A stretch of 64,000 nt of DNA, from contig OY781964.1 in the NCBI GenBank assembly GCA_963677485.1, forward strand, positions 1,088,001 through 1,152,000, in the 5' to 3' direction. The number at the start of each line of letters is the position of its first letter. Position 1 is the stretch's first letter. Under the pieces are notes generated by a model that saw nothing but the letters and a program-made list of their open reading frames with translations, ran no database searches and had not been told where the DNA came from. Shown here piece by piece: positions 792 through 59,410 of this stretch. The translations under genes were made by a program, and so were the position numbers. This DNA is from Armatimonadota bacterium. GTDB taxonomy: Bacteria; Armatimonadota; HRBIN16.

Positions 792-2220
792 ATGTCGACC
801 CAAGATAAAATCCTGCGCGACTCGGTACATGGATACATCCATGTACCGAGTCGATTTTTGTCGTGAGTTTATTGATACCCCAATATTCCAGCGACTGCGG
901 TATATCGAGCAGACTTCAATGCGATGCCTTTTCCCATCTGCCCGGCACGATCGATTTATCCATTCGCTAGGCGTTTACCATCTGGGTAAACAGGCCGTGC
1001 ATAATCTTCTGAATAATTCATCTGATTCCCTCAACCAGATAGGCATAAGTCAAGATGCAATCGATAATACTACTCGATCATTTGAAATGGCGTGCCTGCT
1101 CCATGACTGCGCTCATGCGCCATTCTCCCATACGTTCGAGCGATATTACAAAGCCTCAATACTGGAATATGAACTTGCTCAGTTGATGGCACCAGGCTAC
1201 GATGATGATTATAAAAATGTGACACCTGCTACACATGAACTCGCAAGTGCGATCATTGCTATTAGGGAATATGGAGAGGCGATCATCCGGCTCGGTGGAG
1301 AGCCAGAGCTGGTCGCCCGTATGATCATCGGATGCAGTTTCAAAGGGGAAAGAGGAAAAACACCTGAAAACCAGTTTAACAATGCTCTTATCGCATTACT
1401 AAACGGCAAGGCTATTGATGTAGATAAGCTGGATTACATAATACGCGACACATGGGCATCGGGAGTGAAAAACTTCGCAATTGATGTCGACCGTTTATTA
1501 TCATCGGTTGTATTGTGCCGGGAAATATCGAAAAGCCGATATATCATAGGATTCACTGAGACAGCTATCAGCGTCATACAAAGTGTTGTAGATGCCAGGA
1601 ACTATCTGTTCAAGTGGATATATGCCCACCATAAAGTAAAGTACACAAACTTCCTTATGGAGCAATCTGTCTCCAATATGGCCAAAAGACTAGATAAAGA
1701 CACCAATCCCGATGAATGCCTAGCCAAGGTGTTCAACATACAGAATCTTTATAATCCGATGGAAGTTGCTGGTCATAAGCTTTACCTGGTTTCTGATCCT
1801 GATATCGTTCATTATGTAAAGAATACAATGGAGTATACAAGCGATGATCCCGGTTACGAATGGTTGACACGGCAATATCAACGGATCGCAATCTGGAAAT
1901 CTAAAGAGGCATTTTATGATATCTTTAGCCACCCATCTTCGCTGGAGTGTAATCAGATGGCGTCGCAGTTTGTCACTGTTCAACAACAATTCGAATTAAC
2001 CGACAGTGACCTGTTGAAGATCGATGTCAAGGCTAAGGAAATACTAATCGAACGAAATGCCATCTATGTTCATATCAACGACAAGGATGTTCCATATAAT
2101 GAACTATTTTCTGGCAGTTCGACTGGTATTCTCGACGAATTCTTCTACGTGTACAAACACCGAAATTGCAGGATTGATGACGACAGCATAGTCGATGCGT
2201 TATCTGATTTCAAAAACTGA
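792..2220 (+). pseudogene. HD-domain phosphohydrolase of the SAMHD1/YwfO-like dNTP triphosphohydrolase type, with a +1 frameshift at about 855-859
   Basis: Motifs FQRLRYIEQ, RHDRFIHSLG, LLHDCAHAPFSH and DVDKLDYIIRD are in the long frame. The conserved N-terminus MSTQDKILRDSVHGYI is in another frame (792-866) and joins at a TTTTT run. Confidence 0.8.
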
Positions 2221-2361
2221 CATCATCGATTGTTTGACCAATATTTATTACAAAGACAGATTCAATGGGTTTGCGAGTCGCAGCAATAGCGCAACCACCA
2301 TATGTCATCTATCAAGTGATCCTCTACCAACTACGTCCAATGGCCATACCACCTTCGGAGA

Positions 2362-2420
2362 GCATTGAGGTGTTGAAGGTCGTGGCGGTGAGTGTGGCAA
2401 AGGGGATGCTAGGGCTGGGG
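2362..2420 (+). repeat. 59-bp direct repeat, copy 2 (orphan DUF2513 3' end)
   Basis: 56/59 identical to 140-198. Confidence 0.9.
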
Positions 2421-2757
2421 TGAAGGGCTATCTCACGCGACACCACAGGTGACGACGCGGAGGGCGCAGAGGTAGGGACATGGCGTGCCGTGTCCATGGT
2501 GTCGCGCAGGGGCACCCCCCTGTGGGTGCCCTTGTTCGGGGCAAGTATGGGGGCACTGTCCCTACACGTCAGACCGCCCCGAACATAGCCAAATGGTGCA
2601 TCTGTAACAGGCTGACCGCCAGACCGCGCCGGAAATGGGCTGCATGGCGACTGCTAGCTTACTGAGAAACCGGCGCGGTCATTACCCCTCTGCGCACTCC
2701 GCGTCTCCGCGTGAGAAAGTTCCCTCCATGCCACCCGATCTGCTTCCGTCTCAGAAG

Positions 2758-3291
2758 CTAGTGGTATTTCACGACTTCAGCTAGCGGTTTCCTGACCCGC
2801 GCATCGCGGGCTGGTTTTGTGTATGCCTCGAAGTCGACCACTTCACCTAGCGCAATGCAGCACATTGGGACGTATTTATCTTCAATTTCCAGCCACTTTT
2901 TCAGGGCTGCTTCATCCCATCCCCCCATGGGGCAACTGGCTAACTGCTGCGCGGTGGCTGCAATCATCAGGTTCTGGGCCGCTAGCCCGGCATCGAAGTA
3001 CATCGTGCGTTCATTTTCAGGCTGACCCTCGACTTCGTGTTTCACAGCGCAAACTACCACCACCGCTCCGCATTCGGCCGTCCATGCGTTACCGGGGGCA
3101 GCGATGTTTTGCCCGAAATACTGCAGGTTCTCGCGACCGGTAATGACCCAGAATTTCCATGGTTGATGGTTCCACGATGATGGCGCCAAGTGAGCGGCCT
3201 GTATCAGCGGACGTAAATGGTCACGGCTAAGCGGCTCCGAGACGATCTGCCTTACTGCGGCACGCTTGGAAATCACATTCACTATATCCAT
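2758..3291 (-). CDS. nitroreductase family protein
   Basis: APSSWNHQPWKF and DAGLAAQNLMIAATAQQLASCPMGG motifs; ATG at 3291 with GGAGG. Confidence 0.9.
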   Translation of the reverse strand: MDIVNVISKRAAVRQIVSEPLSRDHLRPLIQAAHLAPSSWNHQPWKFWVITGRENLQYFGQNIAAPGNAWTAECGAVVVVCAVKHEVEGQPENERTMYFDAGLAAQNLMIAATAQQLASCPMGGWDEAALKKWLEIEDKYVPMCCIALGEVVDFEAYTKPARDARVRKPLAEVVKYH

Positions 3292-8850: not shown

Positions 8851-9873
8851 CTAGTAATGCAGCTCATCGGATACGCTACCCCGAAAAGTCCGGTGTATCC
8901 ATATCGTATAAGCCAGCACGATCGGAAGCATGATAGCAGTGATGATGGTCATCACCTTCAGGGTCAGCTCGGAGCTTGAGGCGTTGGCCGCACTCAAACT
9001 GAACTCAGGATTGTTGACTGCGTAGACCATATTGGGGAAGAGCATCAACCCCATACAGACAAACAGCAGCAAGATACTGAGGCTTGAGCAGGTAAAGGCA
9101 CTGCGCAGATGCTGGTATTTGATAGCGACGCCCACAGCCAGTGTCAGGCCGAACGCCAACACAGGGAATATATACAGCATCGGCGTATCGTGATAGCTAG
9201 CCATCAGAGGGTTGCGAGCTGCGGTGATGCCCACATAGGCGGCCAATAACACCGCAAACAACCCCCATGCTCCCTGAGCACCCGTCAGTATCCGTTTCTT
9301 CAACTCGCCAGTAGTGCGCAGCGAACCGAATAGCCCGGCATGCATCACCATGAAGGCCACACTCACCACACCCGAAAACAGGCCAATCGGGTTGAGCAGT
9401 GTTAGTAGCGTGCCCGTGAAGTCTCCCCCAGCGTTCATGGGGATACCCCACAGCAGATTGCCCGCGGCCACACCAAACAGTAGCGAAGCCAGCAGGCTGC
9501 TGATGCCAAACACCTGTCCCCAGTTGTTCTGCCATTTGGCACTTGGCAACTGGTGGCGGAACTCGATGGAGATCGCACGCATGATCAGCGCGAACAACAC
9601 CAGCATCATAGCCAGATAAAACCCGCTAAACACCGTGGCGTAAACAGGCGGAAATGCGGCGAAAAGAGCTCCACCGGCGGTGATCAACCAGACTTCATTG
9701 CCATCCCAGTAAGGCATGATGGCATTCATCAGGCTGTTGCGCTCTTTTTCGTCCTTCGTGGTGAGCATCCACCAGCCCATACCCAGGTCGAAGCCGTCCA
9801 GCAAGGTGTATCCAGCAATAAGGATGCCGATCAGCCAGAACCAGGTGGATTGCAGAATCGTGGGCTCCATCAT
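8851..9873 (-). CDS. cydB: cytochrome bd ubiquinol oxidase subunit II
   Basis: LDGFDLG, WDGNEVWLITAGGALFAAFP. Confidence 0.95.
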   Translation of the reverse strand: MMEPTILQSTWFWLIGILIAGYTLLDGFDLGMGWWMLTTKDEKERNSLMNAIMPYWDGNEVWLITAGGALFAAFPPVYATVFSGFYLAMMLVLFALIMRAISIEFRHQLPSAKWQNNWGQVFGISSLLASLLFGVAAGNLLWGIPMNAGGDFTGTLLTLLNPIGLFSGVVSVAFMVMHAGLFGSLRTTGELKKRILTGAQGAWGLFAVLLAAYVGITAARNPLMASYHDTPMLYIFPVLAFGLTLAVGVAIKYQHLRSAFTCSSLSILLLFVCMGLMLFPNMVYAVNNPEFSLSAANASSSELTLKVMTIITAIMLPIVLAYTIWIHRTFRGSVSDELHY

Positions 9874-11237
9874 GCTGGCTCACCTCCCTCTGGGCCCTTC
9901 GCAATTTGCTTGCGTATGGTCATTAACCACAGGCCGAATATCGCTGCATACACCACCAAGAAGAGTATGATGGTGAACAGCACCTGCCAGGCCGGCACAT
10001 TCACACTGACGGAATCCACCGTCAGCAGCATGTTTTGAACCGTCCACGGCTGGCGTCCCATTTCGGTCACTGCCCAGCCCAGGTTGTTAGCGATCCAGGG
10101 CAGAGGCATCATCCACATTGCGATCTTCAGGTAGAGCCTGTTCGTGGCGATGCTGCCCTTCCACGAAAGCCAGGCACCGATCAGCACCAGCAGTGCCATC
10201 AGCATGCCGAGACCAACCATCGCCCGGAACCCGAAAAACAGGACCAGGATAGAGGGCCAGACATCTTGAACTTTGGTGACCTTTGGGTTGTCGATGCCCT
10301 TCAATATCGCAGGGTCATTCAAACCCATCACTTTGCATTTAGGCGTGCCAGATATCATCCAGCTTAGCATGGCGGGCATGCGTATGGCATAATCTGTCCT
10401 GCCCAGATCAGGCCGAGGCCATCCGATCAGGGTCATCGCAGCCGGGCACTCTGTGTCAAACAGAGCCTCATACGCCGCCAGCTTGACTGGCTGGTTGTGC
10501 GCGGTGTTGACCGCATGCCAGTGACCAATCAAAGGCTGGGCACAGGTGCTGATCACCGCCCAGATGATGGCGGTTTTGAGTGAGACTGTGGCGAACACCA
10601 CGTTCTTGCCCTTCAGCAAATACCAGGCACTCACACCGATCACGAAGAAAGAGCCGGTCATGATGGCCCCATCGATGGTGTGAAAGAACCGGGGCAGCAT
10701 GCTAGGGTTGAAGACGGCGCCCCAGAAGTTATCAAGAACAGGCCGGCCAGCACTCATCTTGAATCCTGCGGGGGTCTGCTGCCAGCTATTGGCGATCAGT
10801 ATCCAAAAGCCGGATATGGTCGATCCAAACGCCACCAAAAAGGCGGAGAGCTTCAGCATATCCGCTGAGACCTTATTCCAGCCCAGTAAAAGCACAGCCA
10901 TGAAAGTCGATTCAAGGAAAAACGCGGTCAGCGCCTCGGCGGCCAGAAGTGAGCCGAACACATCGCCGACGAAGCGGCTGTAGCTGGCCCAGTTGGTTCC
11001 AAACTGGAACTCCATGGCGATGCCGGTGGAGACACCCACGGCGAAACTGATACCGAATAGCTTGATCCAGAACCTGGCCATCGCGCGATCTGCTGCAGAT
11101 TTCGTCTTGGCATATCGGCTGACCATGCCGAAAATAATCCAGGACAGGCCGATAGTTAAAGGAGGAAAAAGAAAATGGAAAGCGATGGTGAGCCCGAACT
11201 GGATTCTGGCGAGAAGAACAGCATCCAAACTTGGCAC
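9870..11237 (-). CDS. cydA: cytochrome bd ubiquinol oxidase subunit I
   Basis: FHFLFPPLTIG, MEFQFGTNW, QPVKLAAYE, EMGRQPW. Confidence 0.95.
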   Translation of the reverse strand: MPSLDAVLLARIQFGLTIAFHFLFPPLTIGLSWIIFGMVSRYAKTKSAADRAMARFWIKLFGISFAVGVSTGIAMEFQFGTNWASYSRFVGDVFGSLLAAEALTAFFLESTFMAVLLLGWNKVSADMLKLSAFLVAFGSTISGFWILIANSWQQTPAGFKMSAGRPVLDNFWGAVFNPSMLPRFFHTIDGAIMTGSFFVIGVSAWYLLKGKNVVFATVSLKTAIIWAVISTCAQPLIGHWHAVNTAHNQPVKLAAYEALFDTECPAAMTLIGWPRPDLGRTDYAIRMPAMLSWMISGTPKCKVMGLNDPAILKGIDNPKVTKVQDVWPSILVLFFGFRAMVGLGMLMALLVLIGAWLSWKGSIATNRLYLKIAMWMMPLPWIANNLGWAVTEMGRQPWTVQNMLLTVDSVSVNVPAWQVLFTIILFLVVYAAIFGLWLMTIRKQIAKGPEGGEPA

Positions 11238-12599
11238 CTCCGTGTCAGTCGTAGTACTAGTTCAGTTATACCCGAAATGTGCCAGCAGGCGTTAAGATGC
11301 CCATAAATGGCTGGGGATATCCACAGATGAGGCAGTTTGTCGTAACCACGAATGGACACGAACGGACACGAATGGGAAGGATCCATCCACAGATTACACA
11401 GGTTACGCAGATTAGGTGAGGAGTTGCTGCCAATGTCCGGGGCGGTTTTCCCCAACCGCGCCGGTCTTTCTCCAAGGCAGACAGCAATCGGCACGAAGGG
11501 AAAGATCTCACGCCGAGATCACGGAGGGGGTCATGACCACACAGGTTTGATGGAGTGCCGACACCAGTGGTACTCCCACCGCGACATCAATGTCTCGGCT
11601 ATTGGCAAGAAAGACTGCTGAAGCAGCCTGAAGTCGTCGTACGGCCTCCGGGCACCCACGGAGTGGGTAAGATTCTTATAGCCAGGGGTGAGCGAAGCGA
11701 TACCCCTGGAAATGGCCGCGGTACCCCTACCCCGAAGTGGGTCGTCCAATGACGATGTGGCTGATCACCTCCGATACAAGCCACCAGCCACGCTACGACG
11801 GGTTCCATCGCCCCGTAAACGGGGCTCCATCACCCATCGCTGATCAGTTTGCAGCCCGCAAGCGGGCGCAGCGGAAGGTCATCGCAACCCAATTGCCTTA
11901 GTCCGGGGCGGTTTTCCCTAACCGCGCCGGTCTTTCTCCAAGGTAGACAGCAATCGGCATGAAGGGAACGATCTCACGCGGAGATCACGGAGGGGTCATG
12001 ACCACGTCGGTTTGGTGGAGCGCCTACTACACCAGCGGTCCTTCCGCCGCGACATCAATGTTTCGGCTATTGACAAATAAGACTGCTGAAGCAGCCTGAA
12101 GTCGTGGCGCGGCCTCCGGGCACCCACGGAGTGGGTATGATTCCTTATAGCCAGGGGTGAGCGAAGCGATACCCCTGGAAAAGGCCGCGGAAAACGTAAC
12201 CCCGAAGTGGGTCGTCCGCTGACGCATCGGCAGATCACCTCCGATACAAGCCACTAGCCCTGCTACGACGGGTTCCATCGCCCCGTGAACGGGCTCCGTC
12301 ACCCATCGCTGATCAGTTTGCAGCCCGCAAGCGGGCGCAGCGGAAGGCCATCGCAACCCAATTGCCTTAGTCCGGGGCGGTTTTCCCTAACCGCGCCGGT
12401 CTTTCTCCAGGGCAGACAGCGATCGGCACGAAGGGAACGATCTCACGCCGAGATCACGGAGGGGTCATGACCGCGCAGGATTGATGGAGTGCCTACACCA
12501 GCAGCCCTCCCACCGCGACATCAATGTCTCGGCTATTGAAAAACAAGCATCCGCCCGTGCCTACCCGGCAGCCCATACTGTAACTGATGCGTTTCAGGT

Positions 12600-12790
12600 A
12601 CATTTATAGCACACATCTCTTGACAGCATCCCCGGACAGTCTTTGGTGCATAATAGCCCGTTAACAAGCATGGGGCGGAAAGGTGGCTGATCAGCCAGAT
12701 GGTGTAGTGCTCGGTGGCGAACCCGAGTGAACCCGATTACAAGATTTCACGCATATGCCTTTCCGGCTCGAGATGTGTTCATATTTCTAA
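12600..12790 (+). ncRNA. candidate IS110 bridge RNA in the non-coding left end
   Basis: Stem cggaaagg (12676-83)/cctttccg (12758-65); hairpins tggctgatcagcca and ctcgg..ccgag; short matches to donor (TTACAAG) and target (CAGTCTT). Boundaries approximate. Confidence 0.5.
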
Positions 12791-12806
12791 GTGTGAGGAT
12801 CAAACA

Positions 12807-14246
12807 ATGGCACAGCACTCTCGAAAAGACAACTCGCCTGTAGAGGCCAAGCCTCCTTCCCACTCCCTGTTGTCGCGCCGTGTACCGGCCCCTCGGTTCG
12901 TAGCTCATTATCCAAAAGAGGATCTCCAGGTGATCCACCGCAATGCAGCGGGCATTGACCTAGCAGGGCGCGGCGCTCACTTCATCGCTCTGGAGATCAG
13001 TGAAACAGAGCTTGAGGTCATAGAGGTGGGGGGAATGACCCCGGATCTGACGGTGTGGGTTGAGTATCTGAAATCGCATGCCGTGACTACGGTGGCGATG
13101 GAGGCGACCGGTGTCTACTGGATTCCGGTGTACGATGCTCTGGAGAAGGCCGGCATCGAAGTATTTCTGGTGAACCCAAGCCATGCTAAGAATGTTCCTG
13201 GACGCCCGAAAGATGACAAGCTAGACGCACGTTGGTTACAGAAGCTGCATAAATTCGGCTTGCTTTCAGCCTCGTTTCGCCCGAGCGAAGACATTCGCCC
13301 GTTGCTAGAATTCTGGCACCAACGAAGTAAACAAGTGGAATTCTGCGGTGATGCGGTCCGTCGCCAGCAGAGGGCTCTGGATATGATGAATCTGCGCCCG
13401 CACCAGGTAATAAGCGACCTGGATGGAGTGACTGGTCAGCGTATCGTGGACGCGATCGTGAATGGAGAGCGTGATCCAGTCAAACTGGCGTCATATCGCG
13501 ATCATCGATGTCACTGCACCGATGAAGAGCTTTATGCGGCTTTGACAGGGTATTACCAACCCCACCTGGTGTTTGCTCTCAAGATAGCCCGAAACGACCA
13601 TCTTTTCCATCAGGCTCAAATCGCTCAGATCGATGCTCAGATATTACAGCATCTTACTGCGATCATGCCTGAGAATGATGATCAGATCACGGAAGCTGTT
13701 AGCTTGGAAACCCACCCAGTCAACCAGGGAAAACATCCACCGCCATTTAATGCTGGTGCGATGGTGACACTGTTTCTGGGTGTAGACCCAACCCAGCTAC
13801 CAGGAATCGGCGGTCTCACAGCTCTGGGCCTTCTGTCTATGTTAGGCTACGACATGGATAAGTGGAAAACGGATCGACATTTCGGGTCATACCTTGGTCT
13901 TGCGCCGGTTCAGAAGATCAGCGGAGGTAAACGGCTATCGAGCCGTACCCGGCCTGGCATACATCCTGCGGCCGTTCTGTTTCTGCAGTCGGCCGTTGCG
14001 ACTATACGTTCTGATAATGCTTACGGTGCTTTCTAAAGACGCTTAGCGGCTCGCATCAGTAAGCCTAAAGCTCTCTATGCCACCGCATACAAAATCGCCA
14101 GGATGTACTACCATCTGCTAAAAGACGGCCAGCAATACGTTGATCTTGGGGTTCAGGATTACGAAGCGAGGTATCAGTCTCATCAAGTTGCAGCCATGAG
14201 AAAGAGGGCCAAGAAGTTAGGTTTCGATCTGATCGAAGCCGTCTGA
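12807..14246 (+). pseudogene. IS110 DEDD/Tnp recombinase with premature TAA at 14034-14036
   Basis: AGIDLA, AMEATGVYW, KDDKLDARWL and ISGG motifs. Past the stop the frame continues RRLAARISKPKALYATAYKIARMYYHLLK...KKLGFDLIEAV to TGA at 14246. Confidence 0.9.
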
Positions 14247-15396
14247 CCATTTGATTTTCGATGCTTTCAAGCACAATTTTATCGGAGAAGTGCATAGGCA
14301 GCTCCGACAGGCATTCTATACCCAATAGGTGGTATGATCGCCGTATAAAGGTTACTTACAAGACTGCTGAAGCAGCCTGAAGTCGTCGCGCGGCCTCCGG
14401 GCACCCACGGAGTGGGTAAGATTCCTTATAGCCAGGGGTGAGCGTAGCGATACCCCTGGTAAAGGCCGCGGTACCCTACCCCCGGACGGGGGTCGTCCGA
14501 TGACGATGTGGCTGATCACCTCCGATACAAGCCACCAGCCCCGCTACGACGGGTTCCATCGCCCCGTGAACGGGGCTCCATCACCCATCGCTGATCAGTT
14601 TGCAGCCCGCAAGCGGGCGCAGCGGAAGGCCACCGCAGCCCAAATGCCGAAGTCCGGGGCGGTTTTCCCTAACCGCGCCGGTCTTTCTCCAGGGCAGACG
14701 GCGATCGGCACGAAGGGAAAGATCTCACGCGGAGACGCGGAGATCACGGAGGGGTCATGACCGCGCAGGTTTGATGGAGTGCCTACACCAGCGGTCCTCC
14801 CGCCGCGACATAAATGTCTCGGCTATTGACAAAAAAGACTGCTGAAGCAGCCTGAAGTCGTCGTACGGCCTCCGGGCACCCACGGAGTGGGTAAGATTCC
14901 TTATAGCCAGGGGTGAGCGAAGCGATACCCCTGGAAAAGGCCGCGGTACCCTACCCCCGGACGGGGGTCGTCCGCTGACGATGTGGTTGATCACCTCCGA
15001 TACAAGCCACCAGCCCCGCTACGACGGGTTCCATCGCCCCGTGAACGGGGCTCCATCACCCATCGCTGATCAGTTTGCAGCCCGCAAGCGGGCGCAGCGG
15101 AAGGCCACCGTAGCTCAAATGCCACAGTCCGGGGCGGTTTTCCCTAACCGCGCCGGTCTTTCTCCAAGGCAGACGGCAATCGGCACGAAAGGAAGACAGT
15201 CCACAGATCGCACATATTGTCTGAACCACGAATATACACGAATGGACACGAATGGCTATAAACACAACGCAAAGTCGCAAAGAAGCAAGGACGCAAAGGT
15301 TGGCGGAGGCGATTCACCATCCGTGTCATCCGTGGTTCAGACGATAACGCAGCATGGACACGAACACCGTATCACAACATAATGCCCCATCCGCCG

Positions 15397-15445: not shown

Positions 15446-16846
15446 CTACGCTCCCTGGCTCTCCAGGAAGCTCTTGATGTTATGCGCGATGTCTTTCCCG
15501 TCGCCCATGGCCAGGATGACCGTGGCGGCGCCGCGCACGATGTCGCCTCCGGCGAACACGCCAGGAATGCTGGTCATGCCCTTCTCATCGGTGATGATGT
15601 TGCCGCGGCGGTCGAGTGCCAGATCGGGGCAGGTGCTGGTGAGCAGCGGGTTCGCTTTGCTGCCGATGGCCACTACCACGCTGTCGCACGGGATCTCGAA
15701 CTCGCTGCCCTCGATGGGAACGGGGCGGGATCGGCCCGATGCGTCTGGTTCACCTGCTGCCATGCGGATGCACTTCAGGCCGGTGACCCATCGTTTCTCG
15801 TTGCCCAGCACTTCCACAGGCGCGGTGAATATTTCAAGCTGCACACCCTCTTGTTCAGCGTGGTGTACCTCTTCCACACGGGCGGGCATGTCCTCTTTGC
15901 TGCGGCGGTAGACGATAATCGCCTCCTCAGCACCCAGGCGGCGAGCGGTGCGCACGGCATCCATGGCCACATTGCCGCCGCCAATCACACACACGCGCTT
16001 CCCCTTCAATATGGGGGTGTTGCTGATCGGGAAGTCGTAGGCTTTCATCAGGTTCACGCGGGTCAGGTACTCGTTCGCTCCATACACGCCCTTGAAGTTC
16101 TCGCCCGGCACGTTCATGAAGATGGGCAGACCGGCCCCCACAGCGATGAACACCGCGCCGAACTGCTGCAGCAGCTCTGGGATGGTGATGGTGTTGCCCA
16201 CAATGACGTTGGGCTCAAGAACCACCCCCATCTTCTCCAGCCTCTGCACTTCGCTGCGCACGATGGCCTTGGGAAGCCGGAACTCCGGGATACCGTAACT
16301 GAGAACACCGCCGGCCTTGTGGAAGGCCTCAAAAACCGTGACCTTGAAGCCCAGTCGCGCCAGCTCACCCGCCGCGGTCAGACCACCGGGTCCAGCCCCA
16401 ACTACCGCCACGCTTTTGGCCTCTGGTGTGATCTCGGGCTTGGCCACGGGCAGGTTCTCGCGTGCCCAGTCGGCCACAAAACGCTCAAGGTATCCGATCG
16501 CCACGGGCAGGCTCTTCACGCCGCGAACACACCGCACTTCGCACTGAGTCTCCTGCGGACAGACACGGCCTGTGATAGAGGGCAGCGCGTTATCGGTTAG
16601 CAGCGAGGTGGCGGCTCCTGCCAGATCGCGTTCCGCCAGCAAGGTGATGAATTTCGGGATATTCACCCCAACAGGGCAGCCTTCGATGCACTTTGCGTTC
16701 TTGCAGTTCAAGCAGCGATGGGCTTCCAGGATGGCGGTCTCCAGTTCGTAGCCCTGGTTCACCTCCTGGAAGTTGCCAGACCTCTGCTGTGCGTCCTGCT
16801 CCCGCATCGGCTGGCGGGTGATGCTCATTTTCTGTTTTGCGTCCAT
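15446..16846 (-). CDS. nfnB: NADH-dependent ferredoxin:NADP+ oxidoreductase large subunit (GltD/SudA-like)
   Basis: RCLNC..CIEGCP, GRVCPQETQCE..C, GAGPGG, GGGNVAMD and FAGGD motifs; paired with nfnA. Confidence 0.85.
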   Translation of the reverse strand: MDAKQKMSITRQPMREQDAQQRSGNFQEVNQGYELETAILEAHRCLNCKNAKCIEGCPVGVNIPKFITLLAERDLAGAATSLLTDNALPSITGRVCPQETQCEVRCVRGVKSLPVAIGYLERFVADWARENLPVAKPEITPEAKSVAVVGAGPGGLTAAGELARLGFKVTVFEAFHKAGGVLSYGIPEFRLPKAIVRSEVQRLEKMGVVLEPNVIVGNTITIPELLQQFGAVFIAVGAGLPIFMNVPGENFKGVYGANEYLTRVNLMKAYDFPISNTPILKGKRVCVIGGGNVAMDAVRTARRLGAEEAIIVYRRSKEDMPARVEEVHHAEQEGVQLEIFTAPVEVLGNEKRWVTGLKCIRMAAGEPDASGRSRPVPIEGSEFEIPCDSVVVAIGSKANPLLTSTCPDLALDRRGNIITDEKGMTSIPGVFAGGDIVRGAATVILAMGDGKDIAHNIKSFLESQGA

Positions 16847-25580: not shown

Positions 25581-26823
25581 GGCACCGTGGCTGGTCACCC
25601 CCGAATCAAACCACCAGCCCCGCCGCGACGGGTTCCATCGCCCCGTGAACGGGGCTCCATCACCCATCGCTAACGATCTAGCAGCCCGCAAGCGGGCGCA
25701 TGGGGAGGCCCACCGCATCCCGAATGCCTGAGTCCGGGGCGGTTTTCCCTAACCGCGCCGGTCTTGCGGATAGCCTACTCAAGCGGTCCTCCCGCCGTGA
25801 CATAAATGTCTCGGTTGTTGACCACCACGACTGCTGAAGCAATCTGAGGCGCCGCAAGGCCGTCCGGACACCCACGAAGTGGGTATGATTCCTTATAGCC
25901 AGGGGTGAGCGAAGCGATACCCCTGGAAAAGGCCGCATAACCCTACCCCCAGACGGGGGTCGAACGTGACCGCAGCCCTGCCCATCCGGGTCCTCTGTGG
26001 TCCTGACAACACCCGTGCCAAACGCCAGCCGGCGAGGCTCAAGACCGGCGCGGTCTTGAGCCAGCTGCAGCCGCTATGTATCCGCCAGACCGCCCCGGAC
26101 ATAGCCAATGTGGTTTCGTGGGAAGGCCCATCCGTAAAATCCGCGGTTCAGACGCGTGTCCGTCGCATCGCGGCACCCCCGCGCCCGCTTGCGGGCAGCT
26201 AGCCAATTAGACGCGCGGTGAGGGAACCCCATTCATGGGGTGACTAAACCCGCGGCACCGCGGCCGGTCACCCCCGAATCAAACCACCAGCCACGCTGCG
26301 ACGGGTTCCATCGCCCCGTGAACGGGGCTCCATCACCCGTCGCTAACGATGTAGCAGCCCGCAAGCGGGCGAGCTGGGCGGCCACCGGAGCGGCCCATAG
26401 GCCTATGTCCGCAGCCGTCCGGACACCCACGAAGTGGGTAAGATTCCTATAGCCAGGGGGGAGCGAAGCGATACCCCTGGAAAAGGCCGCATAACCCTAC
26501 CCCCGGACGGGGGTCGACGTTATCGTAAGCCGGCACACCCGTGTCATTTGTGGTCCTGACATCACCCGTGCCAAACGCCAGCTGGCGACGCAAAAGACCA
26601 GCGCGGTCTTGAGCCATCTGCAGCCGCTATGTATCCGCCAGACCGCCCCGGACTTAGCCAATATGGTCGCCGCGAGAAGGCCCATCCGTGTCATCCGTGG
26701 TTCAGATGAATGTCGTCCGCATCGCTGAACCGCCGCGCCCGCTTGCGGGCAGCCAGCCATCTAGACGCGCGGTGAGAGAACCCCATTTATGGGGTGACTA
26801 AACCCGCGGCACCGTGGCTGGTC
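25581..26823 (+). repeat. second composite REP-like repeat cluster: two imperfect tandem units (~673 and ~554 bp) with reshuffled modules
   Basis: ggcaccg(t/c)ggc(t/c)ggtc at 25581, 26254 and 26808; same hairpin modules as 11435-15192 in a different order and orientation. Confidence 0.9.
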
Positions 26824-38179: not shown

Positions 38180-38324
38180 CACCTGCACGTGCTGAAACGG
38201 CAGCCCATACTGTAACTGATACGGTCGTAGGGGCCACCCTTATGGTGGCCCTAAACGTTGCTTATTCGATTGTTTTCGATTAGGGCGCCCACAAGAGGCG
38301 CCCCTACGACCAGCTACTTACGAG
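38180..38324 (+). mobile_element. 145-bp non-autonomous IS110-derived element carrying a GTAG-type REP doublet
   Basis: Left end shares cggcagcccatactgtaactgat with the IS110 left end at the same offset. Right end tacttacgAG matches IS tacttacaAG. Inserted at the same position of the same repeat module. Confidence 0.85.
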
Positions 38325-43110: not shown

Positions 43111-43556
43111 GACGCGGGTATGTGCCTTCGCGTCTTCGCGTGACACATCCGGAGGGAGGCCAACCGGGAGATGGACGTTCCCAGGGTGTCCATTCGTGTC
43201 CATTTGTGTCCATTCGTGGTTGCTTAAATTGTCCATATCTGTGCCATCTGTGTAATCTGTGGATGAACCCTCCCCCTCCGCGTCCTCCGCGTCCTCCGCG
43301 TCTCCGCGTGACACATCCGGACGGGAGGCCAATCGGGAGATTGGCGTTCCCAGGGTGTCCATTCGTGGTTGCATTAAAATGACCCAATCTGCGTAATCTG
43401 TGTAATCTGTGTAATCTGTGGATAAACACTCCCTATTCGGCCCGATAAAACACCCGCGCGAACGGGTGAATGACATTCATCGTGCATCGTCGGGTATCCT
43501 TACTATATATGTGTCTCCGATATACCCATCAAACCCCATGAAGTGAGGTCTGTACA

Positions 43557-59144: not shown

Positions 59145-59207
59145 GTATCGGCGGGGGGTGGGTAGCAATTACCCACAGTAATAATGTAAGTTCGTGCACC
59201 TGGCATG

Positions 59208-59410
59208 CCGCGACATAAATGTCTCGGCTGCTGATCAACAAGCCCGGTAAACCGGGTTGCGGAGCTCCTTGCCGATAAAGATAACGTTAATAAAGACTGC
59301 TTCAGCAGTCTTGGTGTTCAGTAGCCGAGACATTTATGTCGCGGAATCGGTGACCTACTGGCCACGCGATATTTATGGGTAATAAACTGACATAAATGTC
59401 TCGGAATCAG
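59208..59410. repeat. inverted pair of REP-like modules containing empty IS110 target sites
   Basis: ccgcgacataaatgtctcgg forward at 59208 and inverted at about 59325-59344. Reverse complement of 59310-59363 is 52/54 identical to 38126-38179. Confidence 0.9.

What the first reader, a model, noticed from the sequence alone, without database searches (positions are those of the whole stretch)
12543..14362. IS110 inserted at single-base precision in a repeat hairpin foot, with filled and empty sites side by side
Seen: unit 3 reads ...aaaACAAG|IS|actgctgaagcagcc. Empty equivalents read gaaAG (unit 1), ataAG (unit 2), aaaAG (unit 4), cacCACG (near 25830) and accaAG (59310, minus strand). Both occupied sites have CAAG on the left. 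Comparison with the mini-element (left caAG, right cgAG) narrows the likely core to AG. Known: IS110 members such as IS621 target REP sequences via bridge RNA. The window alone defines target, donor junction (tacttacaAGcatccg) and core.
Basis: partly seen in the sequence, partly recalled or inferred. Interest (0 to 1): 0.7.

Follow-up and report, generated by a model that had tools for sequence, protein, structure and literature searches.

The report
RNA-guided IS110 element in repeat hairpin
This is an ordinary-in-kind but unusually well documented IS110-family insertion sequence that sits exactly at an AG at the foot of a repeat hairpin, carries its own guide RNA matching that site, and shares its ends with dozens of gene-less mini-elements.

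Summary
Window 12548-14362 is a 1815-bp IS110-family element. Removing it gives a site colinear with the three empty units beside it. All 3 of 3 genomic copies have the same flanks. The transposase has both IS110 Pfam domains and passes NCBIfam NF033542.

The left end encodes a 168-nt structured RNA at 12611-12778. One loop strand is the reverse complement of AAG|ACTG (core plus right flank). The other strand repeats AACAAG (left flank plus core). A sister genome and a 72% relative carry matching changes in guide and flank. The RNA is found upstream of the transposase in 42 of 84 distant loci, with strong pair covariation.

AG as the core is supported by 48 mini-elements that share the element's ends.

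- The window copy and its identical twin carry an in-frame TAA; only the third copy is intact.
- The guide strand order is the reverse of IS621.
- The ends carry an asymmetric 5-bp inverted repeat.

Circle junctions could not be tested. This is a new member of a known kind.

The parts
12517..12545 (+). Left target. Repeat module GACATCAATGTCTCGGCTATTGA (12517-12539, contains the palindrome GACAT..ATGTC) followed by the left-target bases AAAACA (12540-12545).
   Evidence: the module occurs 136 times in the genome. The same module flanks all 3 IS copies.
12546..12547 (+). Left copy of the AG core (crossover dinucleotide).
   Evidence: AG is the only part of the junction that is constant on both sides of 48 mini-elements.
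12548..12584 (+). Left-end donor module. It holds RD CATCCGCCCG, a small hairpin (CCGT..ACGG type), the segment CAGCC (12569-12573) that the donor-loop 5' strand repeats, and the sub-terminal repeat arm GTAAC (12580-12584).
   Evidence: conserved in about 90 mini-element left ends. GTAAC is the reverse complement of the right-end GTTAC; the loop strand matches this segment in the same sense.
12611..12778 (+). Bridge (seek) RNA. It has a closing stem, a target-binding loop and a donor-binding loop.
   Evidence: the model finds it upstream of the transposase in 42 of 84 relatives' loci. 92.6% of 1800 cells are paired, and 41 of 43 pairs show changes on both sides.
12635..12643 (+). Target loop, 5' strand (right target guide) GACAGUCUU. 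Its reverse complement is AAGACTGTC, which pairs with the top strand at AAG|ACTG.
   Evidence: The sister-genome copies read AUCGGUCUU and sit at AAG|ACCG or AAG|CCCG. The 72% relative reads GUCCCUCCU and sits at AG|GAGG.
12661..12670 (+). Target loop, 3' strand UUAACAAG+CA. It has the same sense as left target plus AG (so it pairs with the bottom strand), then 2 bases equal to the first 2 bases of the left end (handshake-like).
   Evidence: Own guide versus own flank has at most 1 mismatch in 25 of 40 loci, against 32 of 1488 cross pairs. Copy C has UUAGCAAG next to the flank ccAGCAAG.
12685..12700 (+). Donor loop, 5' strand GGCUGAUCAGCCAGAU. Its CAGCC repeats left-end bases 12569-12573 in the same sense.
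   Evidence: a common substring of 6 or more in 14 of 33 own pairs against 91 of 1014 cross pairs. There is no signal for the reverse complement.
12736..12743 (+). Donor loop, 3' strand (left donor guide) AUUACAAG. It has the same sense as the right end CTTACAAG.
   Evidence: the last 7 bases are found exactly, 1240-1973 bases downstream of the RNA, in 34 of 43 non-redundant loci.
12807..14246 (+). IS110-family transposase reading frame, 479 codons, interrupted by TAA at 14034-14036 (codon 410).
   Evidence: Copy C (G000:C1:3874336-3876155) has TAT at this codon and is open.
14351..14362 (+). Right end: sub-terminal repeat arm GTTAC (14351-14355), left donor TTACA (14356-14360) and the right copy of the AG core (14361-14362).
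   Evidence: The family consensus is GTTTCTTAGGAG.
14363..14377 (+). Right target: hairpin ACTGCTGAAGCAGCC. Its first 4 bases are the guide-matched right target.
   Evidence: RT is ACTG at 3 of 3 IS copies and at 37 of 115 empty sites.
38180..38324 (+). 145-bp mini-element with the same left-end module and right end (..CTACTTACG-AG). It has no RNA and no gene, and sits in the same kind of target.
11612..11613 (+). Empty target, unit 1 (AG). Further empty sites are at 12080-12081 and 14836-14837, at 59310-59311 on the minus strand, and at 25828-25829 (a CG variant).

Best explanation
Window 12548-14362 is one copy of an IS110-family (DEDD/serine) insertion sequence. It inserts by RNA-guided, conservative site-specific recombination at an AG dinucleotide. 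That AG lies between a repeated left module (...TCGGCTATTGAnnnnCA) and the first bases of a short hairpin (ACTGCTGAAGCAG).

The 168-nt RNA in the left end has two internal loops.
- In the first loop, the 5' strand pairs with the top strand across AAG plus ACTG. The 3' strand pairs with the bottom strand across AACA plus AG, and then reads two bases of the element's own left end.
[quoted passage not shown] The 5' strand repeats a left-end segment that lies just before a 5-bp sub-terminal inverted repeat.

Shown here: family membership, precise junctions, the same target for all copies, the conserved structured RNA, and co-variation of the target guides and the left donor guide with the flanks.

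Inferred:
- that a circle with the junction ...TTACAAGCATCC... is the donor;
- that the window copy, with a TAA at codon 410, depends on the one intact copy in trans, as must the mini-elements;
- how the left end is read.
For: Family:
- Pfam PF01548 (E 1.7e-17) and PF02371 (E 2.4e-12).
- NCBIfam NF033542 'IS110 family RNA-guided transposase', 192.5 bits against a cut-off of 140.
- IS621 structure 8wt6, E 4.8e-11.

Junctions:
- 3 of 3 copies share the same flanks.
- The filled unit is colinear with the empty units.

Guides in this genus:
- This genome: reverse complement of the guide AAGACTG, site AAG|ACTG.
- Sister genome: AAGACCG, sites AAG|ACCG (1 copy) and AAG|CCCG (2 copies). Its other strand UCAACAAG matches the flank TCAACAAG 8 of 8.
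- Copy C: UUAGCAAG, flank AGCAAG.
- 72% relative: AGGAGG with site AG|GAGG, and AGAUAG with flank AGATAG.

Guides across the family:
- Left guide: at most 1 mismatch in 25 of 40 own pairs against 32 of 1488 cross pairs.
- Right guide: 2.03 of 4 bases matched in 30 loci outside this genus, permutation p = 5e-5.
- Left donor guide 7-mer found exactly in 34 of 43 loci.
- Sub-terminal repeat present in 29 of 33 loci, with six compensating variants.

RNA structure: 92.6% of cells paired, 41 of 43 pairs changed on both sides, 0 of 500 shuffles as high, slid controls 34-50%.

Core:.
Against: - No transcript, circle junction or excision product was seen. Only assembled contigs were on hand.
- Rfam has no match.
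- In distant relatives the right guide matches on average only about 2 of 4 flank bases.
- No guide complementary to the core-proximal left end (CATCCG...) was found. The same-sense match of the donor loop to a segment 22-26 bases inside the left end is only 5 bases in this element and has no precedent in the passages I read.
- Mini-elements sit next to many different right flanks, often unrelated hairpins. The present guides do not explain this.
- The CM alignment used for several tests is fitted to the model, and many relatives are kin, so the statistics overstate independence.
Confidence: 0.85

Rival explanations
1. Target choice is mainly structural. The recombinase recognises a DNA hairpin immediately to the right of AG (and perhaps the GACAT..ATGTC palindrome on the left). 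The RNA matches are secondary or only add a second check, as proposed for ISPpu10.
For: The right flank begins a hairpin at all IS copies. It also does so at many mini-elements whose hairpins differ in sequence, for example cccgctaaaccggg, ccggttgaaaccgg, cctaagcatattagg and gggcacgccatgccc. The ISPpu10 preprint reports a requirement for both RNA match and a target stem-loop (abstract and section 6).
Against: Guide and flank change together within the genus (A to G in the guide with T to C in the flank) and across 40 loci. The 72% relative sits in a GGAG-rich non-hairpin target that matches its own guides. As the sole mechanism this is unlikely. As an added layer it stays open.
Confidence: 0.1
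2. The conserved ends belong to a pre-existing mini-element family. An IS110 element with other, internal boundaries merely landed inside one such mini-element and was then copied together with it.
For: The first 46-50 bases and last 12 bases of the IS are shared with about 90 short elements.
Against: Relatives at 35-43% protein identity in other phyla have the same end architecture: right end GTTTCTTAGGAG, a left end with a hairpin, and the matching inverted pentamer 31-38 bases in (29 of 33 loci). Their RNA carries a strand equal to their own right end (34 of 43). So the ends belong to the IS family.
Confidence: 0.03
3. The three copies spread by homologous recombination or segmental duplication between repeat units, not by transposition.
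For: The targets are repeats, and the window copy lies in a 469-bp tandem array.
Against: Sequence outside the roughly 45-bp repeat modules differs between the three loci. The sister genome has copies at other loci and at sites with a different right hairpin. The junctions are exact to the base.
Confidence: 0.03

Closest known systems
IS621 (IS110 group; bridge RNA; Durrant et al. 2024, PMC11208160; Hiraizumi et al. 2024, PMC11208158)
   Same: It has a DEDD plus Tnp (serine) recombinase, with sequence match E 4.8e-11 to 8wt6. The non-coding RNA lies upstream of the gene in the left end, with a target loop followed by a donor loop. The core is 2 bp, it targets repeat palindromes, each guide covers the core, and there are handshake-like bases (passages read).
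   Different: The core is AG, not CT. The protein is 479 aa against 326-328. In IS621 the 5' strand of each loop pairs with the bottom strand and the 3' strand with the top; here the order is the reverse. The right end pentamer has its inverted partner 31-38 bases inside the left end. No guide for the core-proximal left end was found.
IS1111-type elements and their seekRNA (ISEc11, ISPa11, ISKpn4; Siddiquee et al. 2024, PMC11187229)
   Same: [quoted passage not shown] There are sub-terminal inverted repeats. Natural reprogramming occurs between relatives (abstract and passages).
   Different: There the non-coding region is downstream of the transposase gene; here it is upstream (265 bases before the ATG, against 116 bases after the stop). 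The repeat here is only 5 bp and is placed asymmetrically.
ISPpu10 of Pseudomonas putida (preprint 10.64898/2026.03.19.712850)
   Same: It is an IS110-family element with a near-exclusive preference for repeat palindromes, often in convergent pairs. A target hairpin lies next to the crossover (abstract and section 6). Convergent pairs about 104 bp apart are also common here.
   Different: There the core is CT and the hairpin is on the 5' side, formed with the left target. Here the guide-matched right target is the first arm of a hairpin. A hairpin requirement is not tested here. The Pseudomonas relatives fetched were not hit by this RNA model.
ISPpu9 modular transposition (PMC12288879; only the abstract start in the search listings was seen)
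   Same: It is an IS110-family element in repeat palindromes with separately mobile modules.
   Different: Here the short elements lack any RNA gene and keep only the two ends.

Membership tests
IS110 family (ISfinder sense; RNA-guided DEDD transposases) | N-terminal DEDD (RuvC-like) domain | tested here: met
   PF01548, E 1.7e-17, residues 48-193.
IS110 family (ISfinder sense; RNA-guided DEDD transposases) | C-terminal Tnp domain (Transposase_20) with the catalytic serine | tested here: met
   PF02371, E 2.4e-12, residues 330-404. It aligns to IS621 residues 202-317, with ISGGK opposite ESGSS. Naming the serine as the catalytic residue rests on the IS621 papers. The window copy is cut by TAA after residue 409.
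IS110 family (ISfinder sense; RNA-guided DEDD transposases) | Whole-protein curated model | tested here: met
   NF033542, 192.5 bits against a cut-off of 140.
IS110 family (ISfinder sense; RNA-guided DEDD transposases) | No terminal inverted repeats, no target duplication beyond the shared core, and a specific target | tested here: met
IS110 family (ISfinder sense; RNA-guided DEDD transposases) | Element-encoded RNA with loops matching target and donor | tested here: met
   The target loop and left donor guide are met. The right donor guide is inconclusive.
IS110 family (ISfinder sense; RNA-guided DEDD transposases) | Circular intermediate with abutted ends | not testable with these tools
   Only Logan contigs were served. 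No RE-to-LE joint was listed.
IS110 group proper (IS621/ISEc21 type) | Non-coding region upstream of the gene | tested here: met
   264 bases lie between the core (12547) and the ATG (12807). The RNA is at 12611-12778.
IS110 group proper (IS621/ISEc21 type) | Bottom-strand match lies 5' of the top-strand match in the target loop | tested here: not met
   Here the top-strand complement (12635-12643) lies 5' of the bottom-strand match (12661-12668).
IS1111 group | Non-coding region and RNA downstream of the gene | tested here: not met
   The RNA model hits upstream only. The right non-coding end is 116 bases.
IS1111 group | Sub-terminal inverted repeats of 7-17 bp | tested here: inconclusive
   A co-varying 5-bp inverted repeat is present in 29 of 33 loci, but it is shorter and asymmetric.
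IS1111 group | [quoted passage not shown] | tested here: met

The most novel reading that the evidence does not exclude
This clade, found from this genus to Acidobacteriota, cyanobacteria and an enterobacterial plasmid, is a third architecture of bridge-RNA transposon. The RNA lies upstream as in IS621, but the strand order is that of IS1111, and there is an asymmetric 5-bp sub-terminal repeat. Both donor-loop strands read the same (bottom) DNA strand while skipping a left-end hairpin. That would fit a folded single-stranded circle as the donor. Because donor recognition needs only about 46 plus 12 bases, the element has seeded a swarm of RNA-less, gene-less mini-elements, and a nonsense copy that still multiplied, all moved in trans by one intact copy.
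Probability: 0.3. Interest if true: 0.7.

Novelty: new member of a known kind. Interest (0 to 1): 0.5.

Why it matters
The locus is a natural, self-contained demonstration of RNA-guided insertion. It offers filled and empty sites side by side, three copies with one target, and sister-genome copies whose guide and target changed together.

It also points to a widespread sub-family whose guide RNA is wired differently from the two studied models, and whose donor ends alone suffice to make mobile mini-elements. Both points bear on how bridge recombinases recognise donors, and on how much sequence a cargo needs.

The kind of element itself is already well known, so the gain is in detail, not in principle.

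Tried and rejected
- Rfam found nothing at gathering scores in the whole window. A permissive scan of 12400-14500 gave only chance-level hits.
- The sigma-70 consensus scan found no promoter in 12400-14500. A TAnnnT hexamer within 14 bases upstream of the RNA is present in 27 of 40 relatives against 6.8% background, but it is weak in this element.
- Folding the whole left end alone gave z = 0.43, which is uninformative. Only the comparative fold was useful.
- Circle junction and excision: 23 runs were listed, all kept as contigs. Four runs were laid. Contigs that 'skip' 1814-1821 bases have short sides (22-58 letters) and match the many empty paralogous sites elsewhere, so they say nothing about this locus. 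No joint from 14362 back to 12548 was listed. I draw no conclusion from this.
- Orthologous locus in the sister genome: the intergenic region between the same two genes holds other repeats and no such target, so no filled/empty comparison was possible. The region around the mini-element is also rearranged.
- A right donor guide complementary to the core-proximal left end was sought by eye and by substring tests. The reverse-complement test showed no enrichment (4 of 33 own pairs against 58 of 1014 cross pairs at 6 or more).
- One literature search for IS110-derived mini-elements (terms IS110, miniature inverted-repeat, non-autonomous) found 434 papers with 2 or more terms. Of the 12 listed, none has a title or abstract start describing such elements apart from ISPpu9 modules. 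This is one search, not proof of absence.
- Supplementary files and figures of the bridge-RNA papers could not be seen. Durrant et al.'s Fig. 6d, Extended Data Fig. 10c and Supplementary Table 5 may already show this sub-family's RNA.
- ISfinder could not be queried, so the element has no name here.
Full report
**1. What is in the sequence**

The window is G000:C1:1088001-1152000. Between a cytochrome bd subunit gene (9870-11237, minus strand) and a glutamate-synthase-like gene (15446-16846, minus strand) lies a tandem array of 469-bp composite repeat units.

Each unit contains the module CCGCGACAT(C/A)AATGTCTCGGCTATTGA, then about 6 variable bases, AG, and the hairpin ACTGCTGAAGCAGCC.

In unit 3 the string reads ...GGCTATTGAAAAACAAG (to 12547). 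It is followed by CATCCGCCCG... and, 1815 bases later, by ...GGTTACTTACAAG (to 14362), and then by ACTGCTGAAGCAGCC.

Removing 12548-14362 restores the empty form with no base gained or lost.

**2. Copies and target**

BLAST of the element against the whole genome finds three full copies:
- the window copy;
- an identical one at C1:137573-139392 (minus strand);
- a 96.6% copy at C1:3874336-3876155, with 62 differences.

All three have the same left module and the same right hairpin, but different sequence further out.

A census of the left module (up to 3 mismatches in 23 bases) finds 136 copies:
- 115 are empty with an AG.
- 14 are followed by the element's left end (3 IS and 11 mini-elements).
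- 7 lack an AG at the expected place, and 2 of these also carry a left-end-like sequence.

Among the empty sites the four bases after AG are ACTG at 37, CCCG at 33 and CCTG at 29. All three IS copies sit at ACTG.

**3. The gene**

The frame from ATG 12807 encodes a protein with PF01548 (DEDD_Tnp_IS110) and PF02371 (Transposase_20). The intact allele scores 192.5 bits on NCBIfam NF033542, 'IS110 family RNA-guided transposase', against a cut-off of 140. It also matches the IS621 structure 8wt6.

In the window copy and its identical twin, codon 410 is TAA (14034-14036); copy C has TAT. The lost 70 residues include the stretch that aligns to IS621 residues of about 285-317, so these two copies are probably defective.

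Because the two are identical over 1820 bases yet lie in different surroundings, the nonsense allele must have been copied after the mutation. I infer this happened with the protein of copy C supplied in trans. tblastn finds no other IS110-type gene in the genome.

**4. The RNA**

Short matches between the left end and the target and donor were seen first.

A sister genome (G001, same genus) holds two copies at 93% protein identity, a broken one, and a relative at 72%. Aligning their left ends gives a common fold:
- a closing stem (CACAUCUC/GAGAUGUG; 12 compensated pairs in the 72% relative);
- a first domain with stem CCCCG/UGGGG, an internal loop and a conserved apex UGGUGC...GCCCG;
- a second domain with stem CGGAAAGGU/GCCUUUCCG and another loop.

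A covariance model built from these four sequences gives 43 matches at E up to 0.052 in 42 of 84 loci of distant relatives (35-43% protein identity, several phyla). Every match lies on the gene's strand. 40 of the 43 lie just upstream of the matched transposase gene; the other three (L040 4708-4880, L077, L052) lie downstream of it, the L040 one upstream of a second IS copy in that locus. A 43.6% relative on an enterobacterial plasmid also matches.

On the alignment of 47 matches:
- 92.6% of 1800 cells are paired;
- 41 of 43 pairs show changes on both sides;
- no shuffle of 500 reaches this;
- sliding the partners gives 34-50% paired.

The alignment is fitted to the model, which favours the structure, but the margin is large.

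**5. Guides**

The 5' strand of the first loop and the site it occupies:

| Element | 5' strand | Reverse complement | Site |
|---|---|---|---|
| This element | GACAGUCUU | AAGACTGTC | AAG\|ACTG |
| G001 copies | AUCGGUCUU | AAGACCGAT | AAG\|ACCG (1 copy), AAG\|CCCG (2 copies) |
| 72% relative | GUCCCUCCU | AGGAGGGAC | AG\|GAGG |

The 3' strand of the first loop and the left flank:

| Element | 3' strand | Left flank |
|---|---|---|
| This element | UUAACAAG+CA | AAAACAAG |
| G001 copies | UCAACAAG | TCAACAAG (8 of 8) |
| Copy C of this genome | UUAGCAAG | CCAGCAAG |
| 72% relative | AAAGAUAG | GGAGATAG |

Across the distant relatives:
- The 8-mer of the 3' strand is found 55-125 bases upstream of the RNA with at most one mismatch in 25 of 40 loci. 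This compares with 32 of 1488 pairings of a locus with another locus's guide.
- The two bases after AG in that strand equal the first two bases of the left end in 14 of 24 loci, against 20% for cross pairs. This resembles the handshake guides of IS621.
- The 3' strand of the second loop carries the right end plus AG. Its last 7 bases occur exactly, 1240-1973 bases downstream of the RNA, in 34 of 43 non-redundant loci. That also defines the right junction.
- With that junction fixed, the four bases beyond AG match the 5' strand of the first loop at 2.03 of 4 positions in 30 loci outside this genus. The permutation p is 5e-5. The signal is real but partial.

So the first loop reads the target, and the second loop reads at least the right end of the element.

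**6. Strand order and ends**

In IS621 the 5' strand of each loop pairs with the bottom strand and the 3' strand with the top. Siddiquee et al. state that IS110-type RNAs (upstream) have the bottom match first, and IS1111-type RNAs (downstream) have the top complement first. Here the RNA is upstream but the top complement comes first.

The right end is strongly conserved in the family (GTTTCTTAGGAG; here GTTACTTACAAG). The reverse complement of its pentamer at -12 to -8 is found 31-38 bases inside the left end in 29 of 33 loci. It occurs with compensating variants: GTTTC/GAAAC, GTTAC/GTAAC, GTTCC/GGAAC, GTTAG/CTAAC, GTTCA/TGAAC and TGTCA/TGACA.

The 5' strand of the second loop shares same-sense substrings of 6 or more with the left-end segment just before that pentamer in 14 of 33 loci, against 91 of 1014 cross pairs. 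The reverse complement shows no enrichment. In this element the shared string is only CAGCC.

I read this as donor recognition that skips a left-end hairpin and uses one DNA strand. This is inference.

**7. Mini-elements and the core**

About 90 places in the genome carry the first 46-50 bases of the element. 48 of them also have the right-end motif 60-560 bases downstream. The size classes are near 145 bp (19 elements), 287 bp (12), 238 bp (5) and 75 bp (4). One lies in the window at 38180-38324. None has the RNA or a gene.

Comparing the five bases at their left and right junctions:

| Position | Left junction | Right junction |
|---|---|---|
| A at -2 | 48 of 48 | 48 of 48 |
| G at -1 | 45 of 48 | 47 of 48 |
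| C at -4 | 31 of 48 | 47 of 48 |
| A at -5 | 34 of 48 | 41 of 48 |

So the bases before AG belong to the element on the right and to the target on the left, and the core is AG (possibly AAG).

Some mini-elements and one G001 IS copy abut the right end of another element. This is expected, because the right end (..TTACAAG) resembles the preferred left target (..AACAAG).

Many mini-elements lie outside the repeat target, next to unrelated short hairpins. The present guides do not explain this. Older guide variants, or a structural component as reported for ISPpu10, are possible.

**8. Comparison and verdict**

The element is a member of the IS110 family by every protein criterion tested, and by its precise, duplication-free, site-specific junctions. 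Targeting of repeat palindromes by such elements, guide RNAs and natural reprogramming are all in print.

The element itself has no close relative outside its genus: the best is 42-44% protein identity among 185,579 species genomes and 72,556 plasmids.

Its RNA sub-family combines features of the two described groups. I could not check figures or supplements to see whether this combination has been described.

I rate it a new member of a known kind, of moderate interest. It makes a good natural system for testing donor recognition and trans-mobilisation.

Noticed in passing
window 14034-14036; G000:C1:137573-139392: The window copy and its 100% identical twin both carry TAA where the third copy has TAT (Tyr410). 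A defective allele therefore spread to a second site.
   Followed up: partly
window 11435-15200: There is a tandem array of 469-bp composite units built from several different palindromic modules, between the cytochrome bd gene and the glutamate-synthase-like gene. The same intergenic region in the sister genome holds quite different repeats and no array.
   Followed up: partly
window 59206-59345 and about 60 other places in the genome: The left target module occurs mostly as convergent pairs about 104 bp apart that enclose two different hairpins. Together they form an inverted-repeat element of about 150 bp that looks mobile in its own right.
   Followed up: no
L082 (G001:C1:5160805-5165031), locus position 1236: One sister-genome IS copy starts directly after the right end of a mini-element (..gctagttactt|ACAAG). 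In G000 two mini-elements are followed directly by another left end (C1:1991029 and C1:4110600). These are head-to-tail arrangements that share one AG.
   Followed up: partly
L091 (G001:C1:78858-83048), 1204-3018: A 72% relative of the transposase has the same right end but another left end and other guides. It is inserted in a GGAG-rich repeat (gagtcaggagatAG|...|gaggcaggagatagg). Similar GGAG-rich repeats occur in G000 near C1:863095.
   Followed up: partly
L094 (NZ_CP154589.1 74226-77921): A 43.6% relative on enterobacterial plasmids has a weak hit of the same RNA model (15.2 bits) and the AGAAAC/GTTTCT repeat. It appears to sit inside another transposase gene next to an IS66-family gene.
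   Followed up: partly
window 43186-43420 and 11347-11375: There are short tandem repeats with periods of 9-10 bp (GTGTCCATTC, CCTCCGCGT, AATCTGTGT, CACGAATGGA) of unknown meaning.
   Followed up: no
G000 genome-wide, e.g. C1:1630868, 1762969, 3265721: A further repeat module (...gaccgcgccggtctggcggatagcc...gtgtcaggaACAAG) is the left neighbour of about a dozen mini-elements. A module CGnnAGCGCAACCCGTGG is the right neighbour of several. The repeats of this genome are mosaics of a few modules.
   Followed up: no
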